Source: a virus (taxonomy: Duplodnaviria > Heunggongvirae > Uroviricota > Caudoviricetes). Taken from it: DNA of 37,440 nucleotides. Each line of letters starts with the position of its first letter. The stretch's first letter is position 1. The DNA lies in IMG/VR virus record IMGVR_UViG_2541047705_000012; one strand, written 5' to 3'. The translations under genes and the position numbers were made by a program. Under the pieces are notes generated by a model. The model searched no databases. It had not been told where the DNA came from and was given only the letters and a program-made list of their open reading frames with translations. Positions 28,772 through 35,423 of the stretch are shown here, one piece after another.

Positions 28772-28972
28772 CTAATCTTTCGGATAGATATCCGGTCTTA
28801 AGTCAGATTTCGTAATTGCACCTGACGTGCATTGCTCAAGTTTTTTAGCCAGCACAAAACTGGCTTTTTTATAGCCATTGAAAACCAGCCGTAAGTAGCC
28901 AGGTGTTGAGCCAACTTTTCCGGCCAACTCGCCCTGCTGTTCTTTGGTTAAAGAGTCCCAATACGCTTTCAT
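28772..28972 (-). CDS. cro: Cro-like repressor (YdaS/Cro family HTH)
   Basis: Divergent from cI; start chosen at the ATG at 28972 (GGAGG upstream), giving 66 aa; C-terminus has an RPDI motif recalled from YdaS-family proteins. Confidence 0.6.
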   Translation of the reverse strand: MKAYWDSLTKEQQGELAGKVGSTPGYLRLVFNGYKKASFVLAKKLEQCTSGAITKSDLRPDIYPKD

Positions 28973-28978
28973 ACAATG

Positions 28979-29056
28979 TGTACCTCCAGTGTACATATTA
29001 CATGATTGAAATGAACCTTCAAGATACTTGTACCTTAACGGTACAAGGGTTTTAAT
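28979..29056. promoter_or_regulatory. Right operator/promoter region: divergent pR (cro) and pRM (cI) with two GTAC-type palindromic operators
   Basis: Palindromes TGTACctccagTGTACA (28979-28995) and CTTGTACCttaacGGTACAAG (29027-29047). pR on the minus strand: -35 TTGAAG (29017-29022), -10 TAATAT (28995-29000). pRM on the plus strand: -35 TTGTAC (29028-29033), -10 TTTAAT (29051-29056), ending 7 nt before the cI ATG, so cI may be leaderless. Confidence 0.45.
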
Positions 29057-29062
29057 TTCGTT

Positions 29063-29737
29063 ATGAAAACAATCCATGACATCCGGCGGTCTAACGCCAG
29101 AAAACTGAGAGATGGTGTTGGCGGGAATTCTTCCTTTGCCACTATGATTGATCGCGAGCCAACCCAGACCAGCAGGTTTATGGGAGATGGTGCTACTAAA
29201 AATATCGGTGACAGCATGGCACGACACATCGAAAAATGTTTCGACCTGCCTGTCGGATGGCTCGATCAAGAACACCAGACAACGAACATCACAAAAAAAC
29301 CTGATGTTTCAATCACTAATAAACAAATCACATTAGTCCCTGTCATATCATGGGTACAGGCCGGAGCATGGAAAGAAGTTGGATATTCTGAGGTTGATTT
29401 GAGCACAGCAGAAACGTATCCCTGCCCTGTACCCTGTGGGGAAATGACTTATATCTTGCGGGTGATAGGTGATTCAATGATTGATGAGTACCGCCCGGGA
29501 GACATGATTTTTGTCGATCCTGAAGTACCTGCCTGCCACGGTGACGACGTTATTGCATTGATGCACGATACAGGTGAAACCACCTTCAAAAGGTTGATAG
29601 AAGATGGGACACAGCGTTATCTCAAAGCGTTAAACCCAAACTGGCCTGAGCCTTACATTAAGATCAACGGTAATTGCTCTATAATTGGTACTGTGATTTT
29701 CTCAGGAAAACCAAGAAGATACAAAATCAAAGCCTAA
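29063..29737 (+). CDS. cI: CI-type repressor (N-terminal HTH, C-terminal S24 LexA-like autopeptidase domain)
   Basis: 224-aa ORF with the S24 serine motif (VIGDSM) and a downstream Lys; divergent from cro-like. Confidence 0.85.
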   Translation: MKTIHDIRRSNARKLRDGVGGNSSFATMIDREPTQTSRFMGDGATKNIGDSMARHIEKCFDLPVGWLDQEHQTTNITKKPDVSITNKQITLVPVISWVQAGAWKEVGYSEVDLSTAETYPCPVPCGEMTYILRVIGDSMIDEYRPGDMIFVDPEVPACHGDDVIALMHDTGETTFKRLIEDGTQRYLKALNPNWPEPYIKINGNCSIIGTVIFSGKPRRYKIKA

Positions 29738-29749
29738 TCAATGTTTATG

Positions 29750-29773
29750 AACCTGCTTCGGCAGGTTTTTTTA
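29750..29773 (+). terminator. Intrinsic terminator after cI
   Basis: Stem AACCTGC/GCAGGTT with loop TTCG followed by TTTTTTT. Confidence 0.7.
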
Positions 29774-29887
29774 TACTTGACAATGTACCTTTGGGATACA
29801 TAATGTACCCAAGAGAAACAACAAACAGGCAGGACGCCCACGAAGTAGCCGCCTGGGGCATATGAAGTCCAGGATGATTCGTTAGCA

Positions 29888-29912: not shown

Positions 29913-29939
29913 TCGCTCTTTAACAATCTGGATGACTTA

Positions 29940-30452
29940 TTACTCAGATTTGAACTTTGGTTCTGGCAAAAGAGGAGGAGTTGAGTCCTCGAATCGTAGC
30001 CAGTGCTCCCAGATATCGTGGGATTGTAATTCCAGAAGACCAATTTGACGTGATGCAACTGCAGTGCCAGCTATAGTTCCTCCTGCATAATCAACCTGGA
30101 CGGACTTTGACGCTTTCTCAATTAATTCTGTCCAAGCTTCACTTTCCGCGTTAAAAGAAGCAGTTAATTCCTGCAGACGCTGTGGATCATCCTTGTTGTC
30201 TTGTTTCAAACGATTCAGGGCGGCCACCGAATACTTATTCTTAACCCAACTAACCTGAGCTAACTGAACTCTCTGACAAGCGTCCATATCAGTAGTTGTT
30301 TCCTGAGGCATATCAAAGCAGGAAATAAAAAAAGTCTCAACACCATCATTTAGACTACTGCTCGGCTGGTTCAAAGCATCAGAAGCATTGGATGCTATCG
30401 GTATTATCAGTGCTACCGACAGAATCAAACGTTTAACATAAATCGCTCCCAT
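29940..30452 (-). CDS. Secreted/periplasmic protein with N-terminal signal peptide; weak resemblance to the DUF1311/LprI family is a guess
   Basis: 170-aa ORF convergent with cI, with its own terminator; hydrophobic N-terminus (LILSVALIIPIASNA). Confidence 0.45.
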   Translation of the reverse strand: MGAIYVKRLILSVALIIPIASNASDALNQPSSSLNDGVETFFISCFDMPQETTTDMDACQRVQLAQVSWVKNKYSVAALNRLKQDNKDDPQRLQELTASFNAESEAWTELIEKASKSVQVDYAGGTIAGTAVASRQIGLLELQSHDIWEHWLRFEDSTPPLLPEPKFKSE

Positions 30453-30739
30453 TTAATTATCCCCTCTAAGAACAGAGTCATCCAGATTAGCCGAATCCTT
30501 GTTGTTGGGGAATAACCAGGCCCACCTCGCCTGATGTGGCTAAAAGCAGGCACATAACAGCTAAGTATTTTCAACCAGAGAGAATCCTTAGCGTTGTGGT
30601 GAATGCGGCTCAGCGCACGCGGGTTAAGGTTGAGGCTGACAGTCGACCTTCTGTGGATACCCACCCGCCTGGTGTGCAACCTTCGCCAGGCACCGGGAGG
30701 CACCCGGCACCACAACTTTATGCTGTGTGTAGTCCTGGC

Positions 30740-30871
30740 GGTACCAGCTTGTACCCTTGCTTCCGGCTGGTACCGCTCTTTTTACAAAACAGAGAAGAGC
30801 ATCACCGGACGACGGGCTCATAACCCAATCCACCCGGGCGGCTGCCACCGCAGGTGTTCTTCTCTGTTTTG
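30740..30871 (+). promoter_or_regulatory. Early-left control region: GTAC-type operator-like palindrome, boxA-like motif and a large stem-loop
   Basis: GGTACCAGCTTGTACC (30740-30755); CGCTCTTTTTA (30774-30784); perfect 14-bp stem CAAAACAGAGAAGA (30785-30798) pairing with TCTTCTCTGTTTTG (30858-30871) around a GC-rich 59-nt loop. No N-like ORF is present. Confidence 0.4.
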
Positions 30872-30920
30872 TGGAGAAACCAACCGACCTTGCAGGGTCG
30901 ATATGATGAGGAGCAGCAAA

Positions 30921-31283
30921 ATGGCTAGCGAACGCAGTACCAACGTGCAGGAATTTATCGGGGAGCTGGACGGCGGCGTATTTGAAACCAAAATCGGCGC
31001 AGTTCTCAGTGAAGTCGCTTCCGGTGTGATGAACACGAAAACCAAAGGTAAGGTCTCGCTCAACCTGGAAATCGAACCGTTTGATGAGAACCGTGTGAAA
31101 ATAAAACACAAACTCTCATATGTTCGTCCGACTAACCGCGGGAAAATTTCCGAAGAAGACACCACCGAAACGCCGATGTATGTCAATCGCGGTGGTCGCC
31201 TGACTATTCTGCAGGAAGACCAGGGACAATTACTGACTCTTGCCGGTGAACCTGACGGAAAACTCCGCGCAGCAGGTCATTAA
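30921..31283 (+). CDS. Hypothetical early-left protein (recalled as YfdP-like)
   Basis: 120-aa product from the internal ATG at 30921 (GAGGAG 7 nt upstream); the long upstream extension of ORF 30603-31283 runs through the regulatory region and is rejected. Confidence 0.5.
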   Translation: MASERSTNVQEFIGELDGGVFETKIGAVLSEVASGVMNTKTKGKVSLNLEIEPFDENRVKIKHKLSYVRPTNRGKISEEDTTETPMYVNRGGRLTILQEDQGQLLTLAGEPDGKLRAAGH

Positions 31284-34209: not shown

Positions 34210-35100
34210 TCAGGCTGCCAGATCATCGTTTCCGATGGAAGCATAATAAGCTTTTTCTGCTTCTGCCGGAGGAGTATGGCCCAGCCTTTCCAGCAATCGT
34301 CGATTGTTATACCAGTCCACCCACGTGAGTGTGGCCAGTTCCACTTCTGCACGGTTTTTCCAGCTCTTACGGTGTATTACCTCCGCTTTGTAAAGACCAT
34401 TGATGCTCTCCGCCATCGCGTTGTCATACGAGTCGCCTGTACTTCCTGTTGATGCCAGTAATCCGGCTTCCTTAAGCCGCTGTGTGTAGGCCAGCGATAC
34501 ATACTGAGAACCTTTATCACTGTGATGGACCGTGCCGGACGGTCGACGGGCCCATAACGCCTGCTCCAGTGCATCCAGCACGAATGTCGTTTCCATGGAC
34601 GATGAGACCCGCCACCCCACGATGTATCCGGCAAACACATCAATGATGAACGCCACATAGACGAAGCCCCGCCATGTGCTGACGTAAGTAAAATCAGCCA
34701 CCCACAGCTGGTCAGGTCGTTCTGCCACGAACTGACGGTTTACGCGGTCGCCTGCGGCAACGGCTTTCCGGCTGATGGTCGTACGGACCTTTTTACCCCG
34801 GAGAACACCGGCAAGTCCCATAACCGCCATGAGACGTGCCACAGTGCATCTGGCCACTCTGATACCTTCCCGTAACAACTGACGCCAGACTTTACGCACA
34901 CCGTATACCTTGTGATTTTCATCGTATACGCGCTGTATCTCTTTCTTCAGCCAGTCATCGCGCTGCGCACGGGCACTGCGTTTATCCGGATGATGTCGCT
35001 GTTGCTGACAGTGGTAATACGTTGACGGGGCAATATGCAGTTCGCTGCATAGCGGTCCGACCCCGTACTGCTCACGCAGCTTATCCAGCAGTGGCATCAT
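34210..35100 (-). CDS. IS3-family transposase OrfB (DDE integrase domain)
   Basis: 296-aa ORF in the -1 frame relative to orfA, starting within the A-run at the orfA 3-prime end. Confidence 0.85.
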
Positions 35101-35423
35101 TTTTTCCAGAGGCGGTCGAACTCCGCCTTCGCAAAATAAGCGGAAGCCTGGCGAAGGATATCGTTACTGCGGCGCAGTTCACGATTTTCACGTTCCAGCT
35201 CTTTCAGACGCTGACGTTCAGCGGTGGTGAGCCCTCCATCACCGCCCCCGGTATCCCGCTCATGCTGGCGAACCCAGACACGCAGAGTCTCCGGCGTACA
35301 GCCAATCTTTGGAGCAATGGAACAAATTGTCGCCCATTGTGAGTCATATTCGCTCTGACTTTCCAGAACCATACGGACTGCCCGTTGACGGACTTCGGGG
35401 GAAAAACGAGTATTTTTAGTCAT
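35097..35423 (-). CDS. IS3-family transposase OrfA (HTH and leucine zipper)
   Basis: 108-aa ORF ending in WKK at an AAAAAA run, typical of the OrfA/OrfB frameshift window. Confidence 0.85.

What the first reader, a model, noticed from the sequence alone, without database searches (positions are those of the whole stretch)
30453..30920. GC-rich 468-bp early-left leader with operator-like palindrome, boxA-like motif and a large stem-loop, but no N gene
The divergent interval between the cI-convergent secreted-protein gene and the first early-left gene contains GGTACCAGCTTGTACC (same GTAC half-sites as the right operators), CGCTCTTTTTA (like boxA of nut sites), and a perfect 14-bp stem enclosing a structured GC-rich 59-nt loop, ending in a T-run. 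No N-like ORF fits between these elements and the first gene. This could be a terminator/attenuator or a cis-acting RNA for protein-independent antitermination (HK022 put-like), or a small RNA.
Basis: partly seen in the sequence, partly recalled or inferred. Interest (0 to 1): 0.5.

Follow-up and report, generated by a model that had tools for sequence, protein, structure and literature searches.

The report
Prophage small RNA plus terminator
The interval holds a divergent copy of a known prophage small-RNA family (STnc100/PasD/sRNA-17) with its own transcription terminator, followed by two conserved hairpins, and it probably keeps the phage's early-left genes silent rather than acting as an operator, a nut site or an HK022-type put site.

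Summary
The motifs are real, but two were misread. "GGTACCAGCTTGTACC" and "CGCTCTTTTTA" are the 5' arm/loop and the 3' arm/U-tail of one intrinsic terminator (30738-30785). This terminator ends a ~190-nt structured RNA (30593-30782). The RNA matches Rfam STnc100 just below threshold (45.4 bits against 47; E 1.6e-8).

The real PL/OL lies about 650 nt upstream, at 29777-29820.

The RNA fold is P1, a bulged P2, a pseudoknot, P4 and a near-invariant P5. It is backed by covariation across 85 distinct Enterobacterales copies.

The copy at the same locus in phage mEp460 is the published sRNA-17 of E. coli K1. That 193-nt RNA has the same first nucleotides and the same terminator. Its deletion raised the downstream gene yfdP about 95-fold.

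The "14-bp stem" is a conserved long hairpin (30784-30872) of the yfdP module. It is not a terminator.

No N-like ORF is conserved, and there is no put or nut architecture.

Best reading: a small RNA released by an attenuator that insulates the early-left operon. A cis-acting antitermination role is not excluded. Many early-left copies carry a boxA-like motif at a fixed distance, but this window's copy matches it poorly.

New member of a known kind; moderate interest.

The parts
29777..29820 (+). Context: PL-like promoter (TTGACA-16-CATAAT, 29777-29804) overlapped by two OL operators (TGTACCTTTGGGATACA 29784-29800; TGTACCCAAGAGAAACA 29804-29820). This is the true start of the early-left leader.
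   Evidence: Promoter scan scores 11/12. The operators form direct-repeat families with the OR operators at 28979-28995 and 29029-29045.
30560..30592 (+). 5' hairpin (GCUAAG...CUUAGC) just upstream of the RNA. It occupies the position where other early-left copies carry a boxA-like UGCUCUU motif; here the match is poor (AAUCCUUAGC).
   Evidence: MFE fold; comparison of upstream contexts.
30593..30782 (+). Predicted ~190-nt STnc100/PasD/sRNA-17-family RNA, running from the first nucleotide of P1 to the U-run of the terminator.
   Evidence: Rfam STnc100 hit at 30563-30785, 45.4 bits, E 1.6e-8. Both ends are homologous to the RACE-mapped 193-nt sRNA-17, which equals mEp460 L002:2855-3047.
30593..30716 (+). 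Structured core. P1 30593-30601 pairs with 30708-30716. J is AAU at 30602-04. P2 is 30605-09 with 30615-16 and 30618-20, with A30617 bulged. The pseudoknot pairs AAGGUUG (30626-32) with CAACCUU (30677-83) in the P4 loop. P4 is 30667-74 with 30684-91. A30692 is unpaired. P5 is CCGGG-AGGCA-CCCGG at 30693-30707.
   Evidence: Covariation on 85 distinct copies: score 0.258 against 0.095 in shuffles (0/500), P2 99% paired with 4 of 5 pairs compensatory. The bulged-P2 model fits 84/85. Pseudoknot: 58/76 copies have at least 6 complementary nt, against a mean of 22 (max 33) in 200 partner permutations. The 20-nt P5 motif is unique in the window, with 0 expected by chance.
30721..30734 (+). Conserved single-stranded linker UGCUGUGUGUAGUC between P1 and the terminator. 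It is a candidate seed or protein-binding segment.
   Evidence: 13 of 14 nt are invariant in the window, e14, ST64B and phiES15, while the neighbouring terminator stems differ.
30738..30785 (+). Intrinsic terminator: 11-bp G+C-rich stem, 17-nt loop and a UCUUUUUAC tail.
   Evidence: Perfect inverted repeat I18. The stems in ST64B and phiES15 have different sequences but stay paired, and the T-run is invariant. The 3' end of sRNA-17 maps to this U-run.
30784..30872 (+). Long hairpin with about 24 stem pairs (15 consecutive Watson-Crick pairs at the base) capped by two small hairpins. It belongs to the yfdP-proximal module. It is possibly an RNase III or translation-control structure (inference).
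   Evidence: Repeat I1; fold at -56.2 kcal/mol, z -4.38. ST64B shows a G-C to A-U compensatory change in the stem, and the inner hairpin changes from GCGG/CCGC to GCUG/CAGC. The module is 97-99% identical in many phages that lack the canonical STnc100 body at BLAST level.
30883..30902 (+). Small hairpin (ACCGACC-UUGCAG-GGUCGAU) immediately 5' of the Shine-Dalgarno sequence GAGGAG (30908-13) of the first early-left gene.
   Evidence: MFE fold. Three different sequences (CGACC/GGUCG, CGCCCC/GGGGGC, UGGCGG/CCGCCA) form a hairpin at this position in relatives.
30921..31283 (+). First early-left gene, yfdP-like (120 aa), followed by yfdQ and yfdR homologues.
   Evidence: phrog_204 match, E 2.7e-49. 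RefSeq annotation of the identical E. coli ATCC 11775 locus.

Best explanation
The interval is the distal part of the roughly 1.1-kb PL (early-left) leader of an e14/SfV-immunity lambdoid prophage. It encodes a divergent member of the STnc100/PasD/sRNA-17 family of prophage RNAs. This is a ~125-nt pseudoknotted multi-helix domain (P1-P2-PK-P4-P5), then a short conserved single-stranded linker, then a strong intrinsic terminator.

Transcription entering from upstream stops at this terminator. That releases a stable ~190-nt RNA (30593-30782). Its 5' end is tucked into P1, and its 3' hairpin plus U-tail is the kind that binds Hfq. The same stop keeps yfdP-yfdQ-yfdR and, further on, xis/int silent, so the terminator is a tL-type barrier or attenuator.

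The long hairpin and the small hairpin that follow belong to the yfdP module. They most likely set processing, stability or translation of the first early-left gene.

Shown: family membership, the fold with covariation, the terminator, and the position in the operon. Shown in a relative only: the accumulation of the RNA, its ends, and the rise of yfdP after deletion. Inferred: that this copy is expressed, that it acts in trans through Hfq, how PL transcription passes the terminator after induction, and the role of the two downstream hairpins.
For: Rfam STnc100 matches 30563-30785 at 45.4 bits, E 1.6e-8, and it is the only such hit in the window. The invariant GGUGAAU and the near-invariant P5 motif are shared with Stx2-phage STnc100 (207.7 bits) and a Klebsiella phage copy (82.6 bits).

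P1 and P2 covary: score 0.258 against 0.095 in shuffles, 0/500, with slid controls at 0.02-0.12. Both the pseudoknot and the P4 stem change sequence from copy to copy while staying complementary.

The terminator is conserved by compensatory changes. The terminator plus downstream hairpins are 97-99% identical in phages whose repressors are unrelated.

sRNA-17 of E. coli K1 is a 193-nt RNA confirmed by RACE and Northern blot (PMC7719688). It equals mEp460 L002:2855-3047. It begins at the same GUUGUGGUGAAU and ends in the same GGUACCGCUCUUUU. Replacing it raised yfdP from 0.49 to 47 reads and yfdR from 0 to 8.5.

Relatives PasD and EcOnc27 are Hfq-associated sRNAs, and STnc100 copies accumulate in lysogens. 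Many family copies have a consensus sigma70 promoter abutting P1 and a terminator 20-75 nt after it, so they are stand-alone small-RNA genes.
Against: The Rfam score is just below the gathering threshold. I found no convincing promoter in front of this copy: GAGAAT is a possible -10 but there is no -35 (sequence). Its 5' end would therefore have to come from processing or from a weak promoter, and expression here is not shown.

The sRNA-17 deletion used a resistance cassette, so read-through from the cassette could explain part of the yfdP increase.

A plain base-pairing sRNA does not need an invariant pseudoknotted fold. The same fold also sits directly in 5' UTRs without any terminator (Buttiauxella yfdP, the kdgM porin operon, tRNA arrays), which hints at a cis function.

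An efficient terminator in front of genes that must be expressed after induction, in a phage with no N, still needs an explanation.
Confidence: 0.7

Rival explanations
1. Cis-acting leader element that makes RNA polymerase resistant to termination (a functional analogue of nutL/N or of HK022 put). It would work through a host factor such as NusB/NusE bound to a boxA-like motif, with the folded domain contacting the elongation complex. The small RNA would be a by-product.
For: The element sits where nutL/N would be, in PL operons of at least five immunity types that have no N-like gene: this window, SfV, ST64B, mEp460, phiES15 and Buttiauxella L195, the last with a lambda-type PL. YGCTCTY, matching the first seven bases of rrn boxA (UGCUCUU), lies exactly 15-16 nt before GGTGAAT in 13/33 early-type contexts against 0/113 promoter-proximal copies. 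P5 and the junction are near-invariant, as expected for a conserved host partner. Copies also head tRNA arrays and long untranslated leaders. The mEp phage collection, to which mEp460 belongs by name, was defined as Nus-dependent (PMC11893012).
Against: In this window the boxA-like position reads AAUCCUUAGC and is paired within a hairpin. There is only one copy and none in the PR operon. The mapped 5' end of sRNA-17 excludes the boxA-like motif. RNAs of this family accumulate as terminated species, so their own terminators work in lysogens. The fold bears no resemblance to the two-stem put RNA. The motif could equally be a processing signal.
Confidence: 0.15
2. Riboswitch-like sensor: the pseudoknotted domain binds a small ligand or senses a physical signal, and sets the efficiency of the terminator (or of translation where an RBS follows directly).
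For: It has the aptamer-like anatomy: a closing P1, a multi-helix junction, a pseudoknot, invariant unpaired nucleotides, then a terminator or an RBS. Tandem domains occur within one transcript (L230, L151, L214). A chromosomal copy lies upstream of a kdgM porin / pectate lyase operon.
Against: By eye, in the few copies I examined, I saw no alternative anti-terminator pairing between the 3' strand of P1 and the terminator. The spacing to the terminator or RBS is variable and unconserved (about 10 to 220 nt). The downstream genes are unrelated to one another (holins, porin, lipoproteins, kil, yfdP, tRNAs). Many copies are stand-alone promoter-to-terminator units.
Confidence: 0.07
3. The interval encodes a protein: a YmfH-like or N-like arginine-rich ORF, such as 30603-31283 in frame with yfdP, or 30536-30823.
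For: ORFs exist in the window. E. coli K-12 e14 annotates ymfH over the homologous stretch.
Against: One-nucleotide indels separate close homologues inside the putative ORF: GCGGGTTAAGG against GCGGG-TAAGG, TTTA-TGC against GTTATTGC, and the e14 ACCGGG-GGCACC. RefSeq calls the identical locus a 'frameshifted' pseudogene. In Buttiauxella the P5 motif is read in a different frame that is not continuous with yfdP. Substitutions are pair-compensatory. There is no Pfam hit and no arginine-rich N-type motif in the neighbouring small ORFs.
Confidence: 0.02
4. GGTACCAGCTTGTACC is an extra repressor operator (a remote OL3-type site), so that DNA-level control is what matters.
For: It contains GTAC half-sites like the OR/OL operators TGTACC-N5-GGTACA.
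Against: The half-site spacing differs (6 nt between the GGTAC/GTACC half-sites against 7 nt between the operators' TGTAC/GTACA half-sites) and so do the outer bases. The string is the 5' arm and loop of a hairpin whose partner arm lies 18 nt downstream. It is retained in mEp460 and in Stx2c and cdtI phages; the repressor I checked (mEp460) is unrelated (15/39 identities locally). It is replaced by a different but still paired stem in ST64B.
Confidence: 0.03

Closest known systems
sRNA-17 of E. coli K1 RS218 (mEp460-like prophage; Front Microbiol 2020, PMC7719688)
   Same: It sits at the same locus, between the repressor region and yfdP. It has the same P1 (GUUGUGGUG/CACCACAAC), the same GGUGAAU and the same terminator, with arms identical to the window's, and a similar length (193 nt against ~190 nt). 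Its deletion raises expression of yfdP and yfdR, the genes that also follow the window element.
   Different: The interior differs: another P2, no canonical pseudoknot/P4, and P5 replaced by CCGG-AGAUCAGCA-CCGG. The linker also differs (AGCCACUGCUUU). The upstream ~30 nt differ, so the reported ArcA-controlled promoter cannot be assumed here. Rfam does not detect sRNA-17, and that paper reported no Rfam homologue.
STnc100 (Rfam RF02076) / PasD1-PasD2 / EcOnc27 prophage sRNAs
   Same: The core fold and invariant motifs are shared, as is a 3' intrinsic terminator. All are prophage-borne in Enterobacterales. Hfq association and accumulation in lysogens are documented for relatives.
   Different: The canonical copies lie in the late region, after Q, after stxB, or in front of holin or nanS-p. 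They often have their own sigma70 promoter ending 8-11 nt before GGTGAAT. This copy is embedded in the PL operon without a clear promoter, has the GCGGC-type P2, and scores below the Rfam threshold.
StxS and lambda 6S RNA (short PR'-tR' transcripts of antiterminated phage operons)
   Same: In both cases a small RNA is produced because a phage operon is terminated early in the lysogen. The same terminator gates downstream lytic genes (PMC7547250).
   Different: Those RNAs come from the late promoter and are read through by Q. Here the operon is the early-left one and no antiterminator for it is known. There is no sequence or structural relationship.
HK022 putL/putR
   Same: Both are structured RNAs in the early leader of a lambdoid phage that lacks N.
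   Different: put is a ~70-nt two-stem element present in both the PL and PR operons, and it acts on the RNA polymerase beta' zinc-binding domain (PMC9378689). Here there is a ~125-nt five-helix pseudoknotted fold in a single copy, followed by a terminator that demonstrably stops transcription in a relative. By eye I see no shared motifs with the HK022 sequences; the BLAST comparison was uninformative.
Lambda nutL (boxA-boxB) with N and tL1
   Same: Position between PL and the early-left genes. A terminator follows. Many early-type relatives have a boxA-like UGCUCUU just 5' of a structured RNA.
   Different: There is no N-like protein and no boxB-type 5-bp/GNRA-like hairpin in the right place.

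Membership tests
STnc100 (RF02076) / PasD family | Covariance-model score at or above the curated gathering score (47 bits) | tested here: not met
   45.4 bits, E 1.6e-8 on 801 nt and 7.6e-7 on the whole window, with a full-length match to model positions 1-206. Other early-left copies score 35-41 bits.
STnc100 (RF02076) / PasD family | Invariant GGUGAAU after the 5' strand of P1, and ACCGGGAGGCACCCGGCACC (P5 plus the 3' strand of P1) | tested here: met
   Both are present, at 30598-30604 and 30692-30711. The 20-mer is unique in the window with 0 expected by chance.
STnc100 (RF02076) / PasD family | P1-closed junction with bulged P2, P4 and P5, and (found here) a pseudoknot between the post-P2 segment and the P4 loop | tested here: met
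   The window forms every helix, and its pseudoknot has 7 bp (AAGGUUG/CAACCUU). Caveat: the genome scan fixed GGTGAAT and P5, so their invariance in that set is by construction. The viral scan did not fix P5 and still finds it nearly invariant.
STnc100 (RF02076) / PasD family | Intrinsic terminator 20-75 nt after P1 | tested here: met
   30738-30785, which is 21 nt after P1.
STnc100 (RF02076) / PasD family | Own sigma70 promoter abutting P1 (stand-alone gene) | tested here: not met
   There is only a -10-like GAGAAT at 30580-85 and no -35 (sequence). The promoter scan found none on the + strand between 30460 and 30921. The 24/133 genomic copies with strong promoters are of the other (CCCCC) subtype.
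STnc100 (RF02076) / PasD family | Hfq binding and trans targets | not testable with these tools
   Known only for relatives (PMC8550237, PMC12711010).
sRNA-17 (E. coli K1) | Same genomic position and same RNA ends (5' GUUGUGGUGAAU..., 3' ...GGUACCGCUCUUUU) | tested here: met
   Alignment of the window with mEp460 L002:2822-3055, and the supplementary alignment of PMC7719688.
sRNA-17 (E. coli K1) | Sequence identity over the 193-nt body | tested here: not met
   The interior (about window 30605-30707) is not alignable to sRNA-17; only the ends and the terminator match. That paper would class it among its 'degenerative sRNA-17' copies.
HK022 put | Roughly 70-nt two-stem RNA with the conserved put sequence | tested here: not met
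   HK022 putL/putR were read from L001. The core motif is absent from HK022 and the architectures differ. BLAST cannot even link putL to putR, so it was uninformative.
HK022 put | Copies in both early operons (putL and putR) | tested here: not met
   There is a single copy in the window, in the PL operon only.
HK022 put | Protein-independent antitermination through the beta' zinc-binding domain | not testable with these tools
   This needs transcription assays.
Lambda-type nut site | Conserved boxA followed by a boxB hairpin, plus an N protein | tested here: not met
   CGCTCTTTTTA is the terminator's 3' arm and tail, and it reads CGTCCTTTTTA in most relatives. There is no N-like ORF.
Repressor operator (OL/OR type) | Matches TGTACC-N5-GGTACA and co-varies with immunity | tested here: not met
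   The operators are at 28979-29045 and 29784-29820. The palindrome persists with an unrelated repressor.
Intrinsic (Rho-independent) terminator | G+C-rich hairpin followed by a U-run, conserved by structure | tested here: met
   11-bp perfect stem plus TCTTTTT. Compensatory stems occur in ST64B and phiES15. The 3' end of sRNA-17 maps to the U-run.

The most novel reading that the evidence does not exclude
The STnc100/sRNA-17 fold is not merely an sRNA scaffold. It would be a host-factor-binding leader domain with a pseudoknotted core, an invariant P5 and, in operon-embedded copies, a boxA-like motif at a fixed distance. It would modify transcription elongation (anti-Rho or antitermination), and in N-less lambdoid phages it would take the place of nutL/N. 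That would make it a distinct RNA-based early-antitermination device alongside HK022 put.
Probability: 0.13. Interest if true: 0.8.

Novelty: new member of a known kind. Interest (0 to 1): 0.4.

Why it matters
For this locus, the result replaces a speculative operator/nut/put reading with a concrete and testable anatomy: PL at 29777, a ~190-nt family RNA, its terminator, and two hairpins before yfdP. It also explains why annotation pipelines call a 'frameshifted' or ymfH ORF here.

Three wider points came out of the comparison, and I did not find them stated in the papers I read. First, sRNA-17, described as having no Rfam homologue, shares its P1, GGUGAAU, overall architecture and locus with the STnc100/PasD family, which suggests that it is a divergent member. 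Second, that family has a conserved pseudoknotted multi-helix fold and occurs across Enterobacterales, including tandem arrays, tRNA-operon leaders and a chromosomal kdgM/pectate-lyase leader. Third, the copies embedded in early-left operons of phages without N share a boxA-like motif.

If the fold binds a host factor, these abundant prophage RNAs are more than seed-carrying sRNAs. In that case the long-standing question of how N-less lambdoid phages express their early-left genes becomes directly testable.

Tried and rejected
- **HK022 comparison.** I fetched HK022 and compared putL/putR with the leader. There is no shared motif. BLAST was useless as a test because it does not even link putL to putR.
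- **Literature.** A search for ymfH gave nothing relevant. A search for SfV antitermination and nut found no description of an N analogue for this phage group; the mEpimmI paper concerns a different group that does have an N-like Gp17. A search for HK639 and antiterminator RNAs gave nothing usable.
- **Candidate N analogues.** SfV orf33, e14 YmfJ and phiES15 gp10 have no arginine-rich motif and no significant Pfam match.
- **Protein-coding reading of the interval.** Rejected because of frameshifting indels among close homologues.
- **tRNA or tmRNA.** None found.
- **Other Rfam families.** Only chance-level hits (DicF 15.9 bits, hairpin ribozyme 17.5 bits).
- **RS218 genome.** Not in the collection, so the sRNA-17 coordinates were reconstructed from the paper's supplementary alignment and the mEp460 sequence.
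- **P4 covariation.** The MAFFT alignment was too poor in the variable region to count P4 and pseudoknot pairs with the pair-counting tool, so I used a per-sequence hairpin/complement search with partner permutation.
- **Targets of the conserved linker.** A search within the window found one weak match in an IS transposase gene, which is compatible with chance.
Full report
**Setting.** The window is a complete lambdoid prophage. The 468-nt interval is 100% identical to a locus in E. coli ATCC 11775. There RefSeq annotates ymfT(cro)/ymfK(repressor), a 170-aa hypothetical gene on the opposite strand, a 'frameshifted hypothetical protein' over the interval itself, and then yfdP, yfdQ and yfdR. 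The repressor is 99% identical to SfV cI, and RefSeq gives it the same protein accession as YmfK of the K-12-type e14 prophage.

In window coordinates:
- cro is 28772-28972 (-).
- The OR operators TGTACCTCCAGTGTACA and TGTACCTTAACGGTACA lie at 28979-29045.
- cI is 29063-29737 (+), and its terminator is 29749-29768.
- Directly after that comes a near-consensus promoter, TTGACA-16-CATAAT (29777-29804, +). It is overlapped by two further operators of the same type, at 29784-29800 and 29804-29820.

That promoter is PL/OL. The early-left transcript therefore starts about 650 nt upstream of the finding. It runs antisense through a 'moron' gene (29940-30452, -; a secreted 170-aa protein with a weak LprI match) and only then enters the interval. 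The prophage has a Q-like antiterminator (22458-23252, -) but nothing that resembles N.

**Checking the observation.** GGTACCAGCTTGTACC is at 30740-30755 and CGCTCTTTTTA at 30774-30784. The long inverted repeat is at 30784-30808 / 30848-30872, with 15 consecutive Watson-Crick pairs around 59 nt. Both halves of the interval fold far better than dinucleotide shuffles: z -4.25 and -4.38, with 0/200 shuffles as stable. GC rises to 0.54-0.61 from about 30525 to 30975.

The first two motifs, however, are not independent elements. GCGGTACCAGC (30738-48) and GCTGGTACCGC (30766-76) are perfectly complementary arms. They are followed by TCTTTTTAC, which makes an intrinsic terminator. The T-run of the big hairpin lies inside its 3' arm, paired to an A-run, so that hairpin is not a canonical terminator.

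Upstream of the terminator lies a multi-helix RNA. Rfam's STnc100 model (RF02076) matches 30563-30785 over its full length at 45.4 bits. The gathering score is 47. The E-value is 1.6e-8 on the local search and 7.6e-7 on the whole window, and it is the only such hit.

Canonical copies score much higher: 207.7 bits downstream of stx2B in an Stx2 phage, and 82.6 bits between Q and the holin gene in a Klebsiella phage. The copies in early-left operons all fall just under threshold: SfV 39.5, phiES15 40.6, ST64B 35.1. The window element is therefore a member of a divergent 'early-left' subgroup.

**The fold.** I collected copies with two collection scans: one of viral contigs keyed on the early-type P2, and one of one-genome-per-species contigs keyed on GGTGAAT...P5. 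The second shows the element across Enterobacterales (Kosakonia, Pantoea, Erwinia, Rahnella, Klebsiella, Raoultella, Citrobacter, Buttiauxella, Superficieibacter and others).

Eighty-five copies that are less than 86% alike were aligned. The results:
- **P1.** The four inner pairs GGUG/CACC never vary, and the five outer pairs all show changes on both sides.
- **P2.** It carries a 1-nt bulge, is 99% paired, and shows compensatory changes at 4 of 5 pairs (for example CCCCC/GG-N-GGG, GCGGC/GC-A-CGC, CCAGC/GC-A-UGG, CUCUU/GA-A-GAG).
- **Overall.** The covariation score is 0.258 against 0.095 in shuffles (0/500) and 0.02-0.12 for slid partners.
- **P4.** In 76 of 85 copies a perfect hairpin of very variable sequence ends right before ACCGGG.
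- **Pseudoknot.** The P4 loop is complementary to the segment that follows P2. Of 76 copies, 58 have at least 6 contiguous complementary nucleotides, against a mean of 22 (maximum 33) when loops are swapped among sequences. Examples are AAGGUUG/CAACCUU in the window, ACUGGAUA/UAUCCAGU, UUUGAUC/GAUCAAA and CAGUUAA/UUAACUG.
- **P5.** CCGGG-AGGCA-CCCGG was fixed by the pattern of the second scan. It is nevertheless nearly invariant in the first scan, which did not constrain it.

In the window:

| Element | Coordinates |
|---|---|
| P1 | 30593-601 / 30708-716 |
| P2 | 30605-620 |
| Pseudoknot | 30626-32 / 30677-83 |
| P4 | 30667-74 / 30684-91 |
| P5 | 30693-707 |

The pseudoknot does not appear in the structure line of the Rfam match, and I did not find it mentioned in the papers I read.

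**The terminator and the experimental link.** ST64B and phiES15 have different terminator stems that stay paired, and the T-run is invariant. The decisive link is phage mEp460. It has an unrelated repressor. In front of the same terminator, long hairpin and yfdP, it carries a variant element with the same P1, the same GGUGAAU, a different interior and a P5-like hairpin.

The supplementary alignment of PMC7719688 shows that this variant is sRNA-17 of E. coli K1 RS218. sRNA-17 is a 193-nt RNA mapped by 5'/3' RACE and seen on Northern blots. It corresponds exactly to mEp460 L002:2855-3047. It starts at the first nucleotide of P1 (GUUGUGGUGAAU...) and ends in the U-run (...GGUACCGCUCUUUU).

In the mutant where sRNA-17 was replaced by a cassette, the strongest changes were in the genes immediately downstream. 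yfdP went from 0.49 to 47 reads (log2 6.6) and yfdR from 0 to 8.5. Those authors interpreted these as trans targets. Given the gene order, a cis effect (loss of the terminator, possibly helped by cassette read-through) is the simpler reading. By homology of both ends, the window should give a ~190-nt RNA, 30593-30782. The paper reported no Rfam homologue. The shared P1, junction and architecture suggest that sRNA-17 belongs with STnc100/PasD, although Rfam does not detect it.

**What is known about the family.** STnc100 copies are numerous in EHEC (11 in EDL933). They are expressed in lysogens, and one was confirmed by Northern blot. The copy after stx2B overlaps the Hfq-bound sRNA EcOnc27. 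PasD1 and PasD2 of EPEC are Hfq-dependent sRNAs with many RIL-seq partners, and they are structurally related to STnc100. No function has been established.

My context survey adds the following:
- Many copies have a consensus sigma70 promoter whose -10 ends 8-11 nt before GGTGAAT, so P1 starts at the transcription start. They also have a terminator 20-75 nt after P1, in front of holin genes. These look like PR'-tR'-type late leader RNAs.
- Superficieibacter prophages have two or three tandem [element + terminator] units before the holin gene.
- Other copies lie directly before an RBS, before tRNA genes, or upstream of a chromosomal kdgM-porin/pectate-lyase operon.
- Buttiauxella prophages have the order: lambda-type PL, hairpin, UGCUCUCUU, element, yfdP, with no terminator and no N.

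**The downstream hairpins.** The terminator, the long hairpin (30784-30872), the small hairpin (30883-30902) and the yfdP SD form a module that is 97-99% identical in many phages, including Stx2c, cdtI and mEp460. Variation within E. coli is too small to test pairing.

ST64B and e14 are more informative. They show a G-C to A-U double change in the long stem, wobble-preserving changes, and an inner hairpin switching from GCGG/CCGC to GCUG/CAGC. The small hairpin exists in three unrelated sequence versions. A stem of about 24 bp just upstream of the first gene resembles RNase III sites in phage leaders, such as the lambda N leader. That comparison is from my own knowledge and is an inference, not a result.

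**Rejecting the other readings.**
- *Operator.* The true operators are beside PL. The palindrome's spacing differs, and it persists with an unrelated repressor.
- *boxA at 30774-84.* Most relatives read CGTCCTTTTTA there.
- *N-like ORF.* Single-nucleotide indels separate close homologues. The reading frame of P5 differs between the window and Buttiauxella. RefSeq has to call the ORF frameshifted. The small upstream ORFs of relatives (SfV orf33, YmfJ, phiES15 gp10) have no arginine-rich motif.
- *put.* HK022 putL/putR are ~70-nt two-stem RNAs present in both early operons. The window has one copy of a five-helix pseudoknotted fold, with no shared motif.

**What remains open.** A strong terminator sits in front of genes that must be expressed after induction, including xis/int further downstream in relatives such as SfV. 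The phage has no N. A simple sRNA also would not need such a constrained fold.

One observation keeps a cis-acting role alive. In 13 of 33 distinct early-type contexts, YGCTCTY lies exactly 15-16 nt before GGTGAAT. This motif matches UGCUCUU, the first seven bases of rrn boxA. It never occurs there in 113 promoter-proximal copies. mEp460 also belongs by name to a phage collection defined as Nus-dependent.

Against this, the window's own copy has a poor match at that position. The mapped 5' end of sRNA-17 excludes the motif, which could instead be a processing signal. And the terminator evidently works in lysogens.

**Probabilities.**

| Reading | Probability |
|---|---|
| Attenuator plus small RNA | 0.7 |
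| Cis-acting antitermination | 0.15 |
| Riboswitch-like sensor | 0.07 |
| Extra operator | 0.03 |
| Protein-coding ORF | 0.02 |

**Verdict.** The finding is real and non-random, but it is largely explained. It is a sub-threshold, unannotated member of a known prophage sRNA family with its terminator, plus conserved leader hairpins of the yfdP module. I rate it a new member of a known kind, with moderate interest. The interest comes mainly from the family-wide fold and from the unexplained way N-less phages pass this barrier.

Noticed in passing
window 29925-29948 and 30465-30488: A 24-nt imperfect inverted repeat (79% complementary) brackets the opposite-strand 'moron' gene (29940-30452, a secreted 170-aa protein, phrog_7681, weak LprI match). 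Relatives carry other inserts at this spot: SfV orf33, and e14 ymfJ/ymfI.
   Followed up: partly
window 34210-35142: An IS3-family element lies beside the excisionase/integrase end of the prophage. Its ALIL frameshifting pseudoknot is at 35026-35142 (-), 120 bits, and its transposase ORF at 34210-35100 (-). The integrase looks disrupted.
   Followed up: no
L003 226-414, L004 409-597, L002 323-511 (minus strand): SfV, ST64B and mEp460 carry a C4 antisense RNA plus an isrK RNA (P1/P4-type immunity RNAs) within or next to the antirepressor-like gene of the early-right operon. The window has neither.
   Followed up: no
L154 4435-4551 (-), and L137, L146, L150, L152, L161, L164 and others: An STnc100-type element lies 80-220 nt upstream of a chromosomal KdgM-family porin gene, followed by a periplasmic pectate lyase. 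This occurs in Kosakonia, Enterobacter, Klebsiella and Raoultella, with no phage genes nearby in the locus examined. Stx phages place the same element before nanS-p (annotated yjhS). From my own knowledge, the chromosomal homologue nanS shares an operon with NanC, a KdgM-family porin.
   Followed up: partly
L159 6362-7009 (-); also L172, L208, L158, L230, L151, L214: Tandem arrays of the element. In Superficieibacter prophages there are three [element + terminator] units in a row in front of a holin gene. L230 has three folds in one terminator-less stretch.
   Followed up: partly
L220 ~455-600, L088, L232, L226: Copies of the element are followed within about 10 nt (L220, L088), or after a terminator (L232, L226), by tRNA genes. 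This suggests that it also serves as the leader of phage tRNA arrays.
   Followed up: no
L005 3576-3887 (e14 ymfH); L251 2644-2954; L002 2560-3113 (mEp460 gp36, gp37): Annotated ORFs lie over the structured RNA and its leader: ymfH in K-12 e14, a 'frameshifted hypothetical protein' in ATCC 11775, and gp36/gp37 on the opposite strand in mEp460. They are probably not genes. The e14 copy also has a damaged P5 (ACCGGG-GGCACCCGAC).
   Followed up: partly
L006 3083-3137 (-): In the Stx2 phage, the anti-sRNA AsxR (88 bits; AgvB-like at 41 bits) is encoded antisense, immediately after the STnc100 terminator.
   Followed up: no
window 34478-34491 (-): The conserved linker UGCUGUGUGUAGUC (30721-34) is complementary at 12 of 14 positions to a site in the IS transposase mRNA strand. 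About 0.13 such matches are expected by chance, so this is probably coincidence.
   Followed up: no
L195 650-760: A Buttiauxella prophage has lambda-like operators (TATCAC... repeats) and a PL of the form TTGACT-17-GATACT, but no N. Instead the order is hairpin, UGCUCUCUU, STnc100-type element, yfdP.
   Followed up: partly
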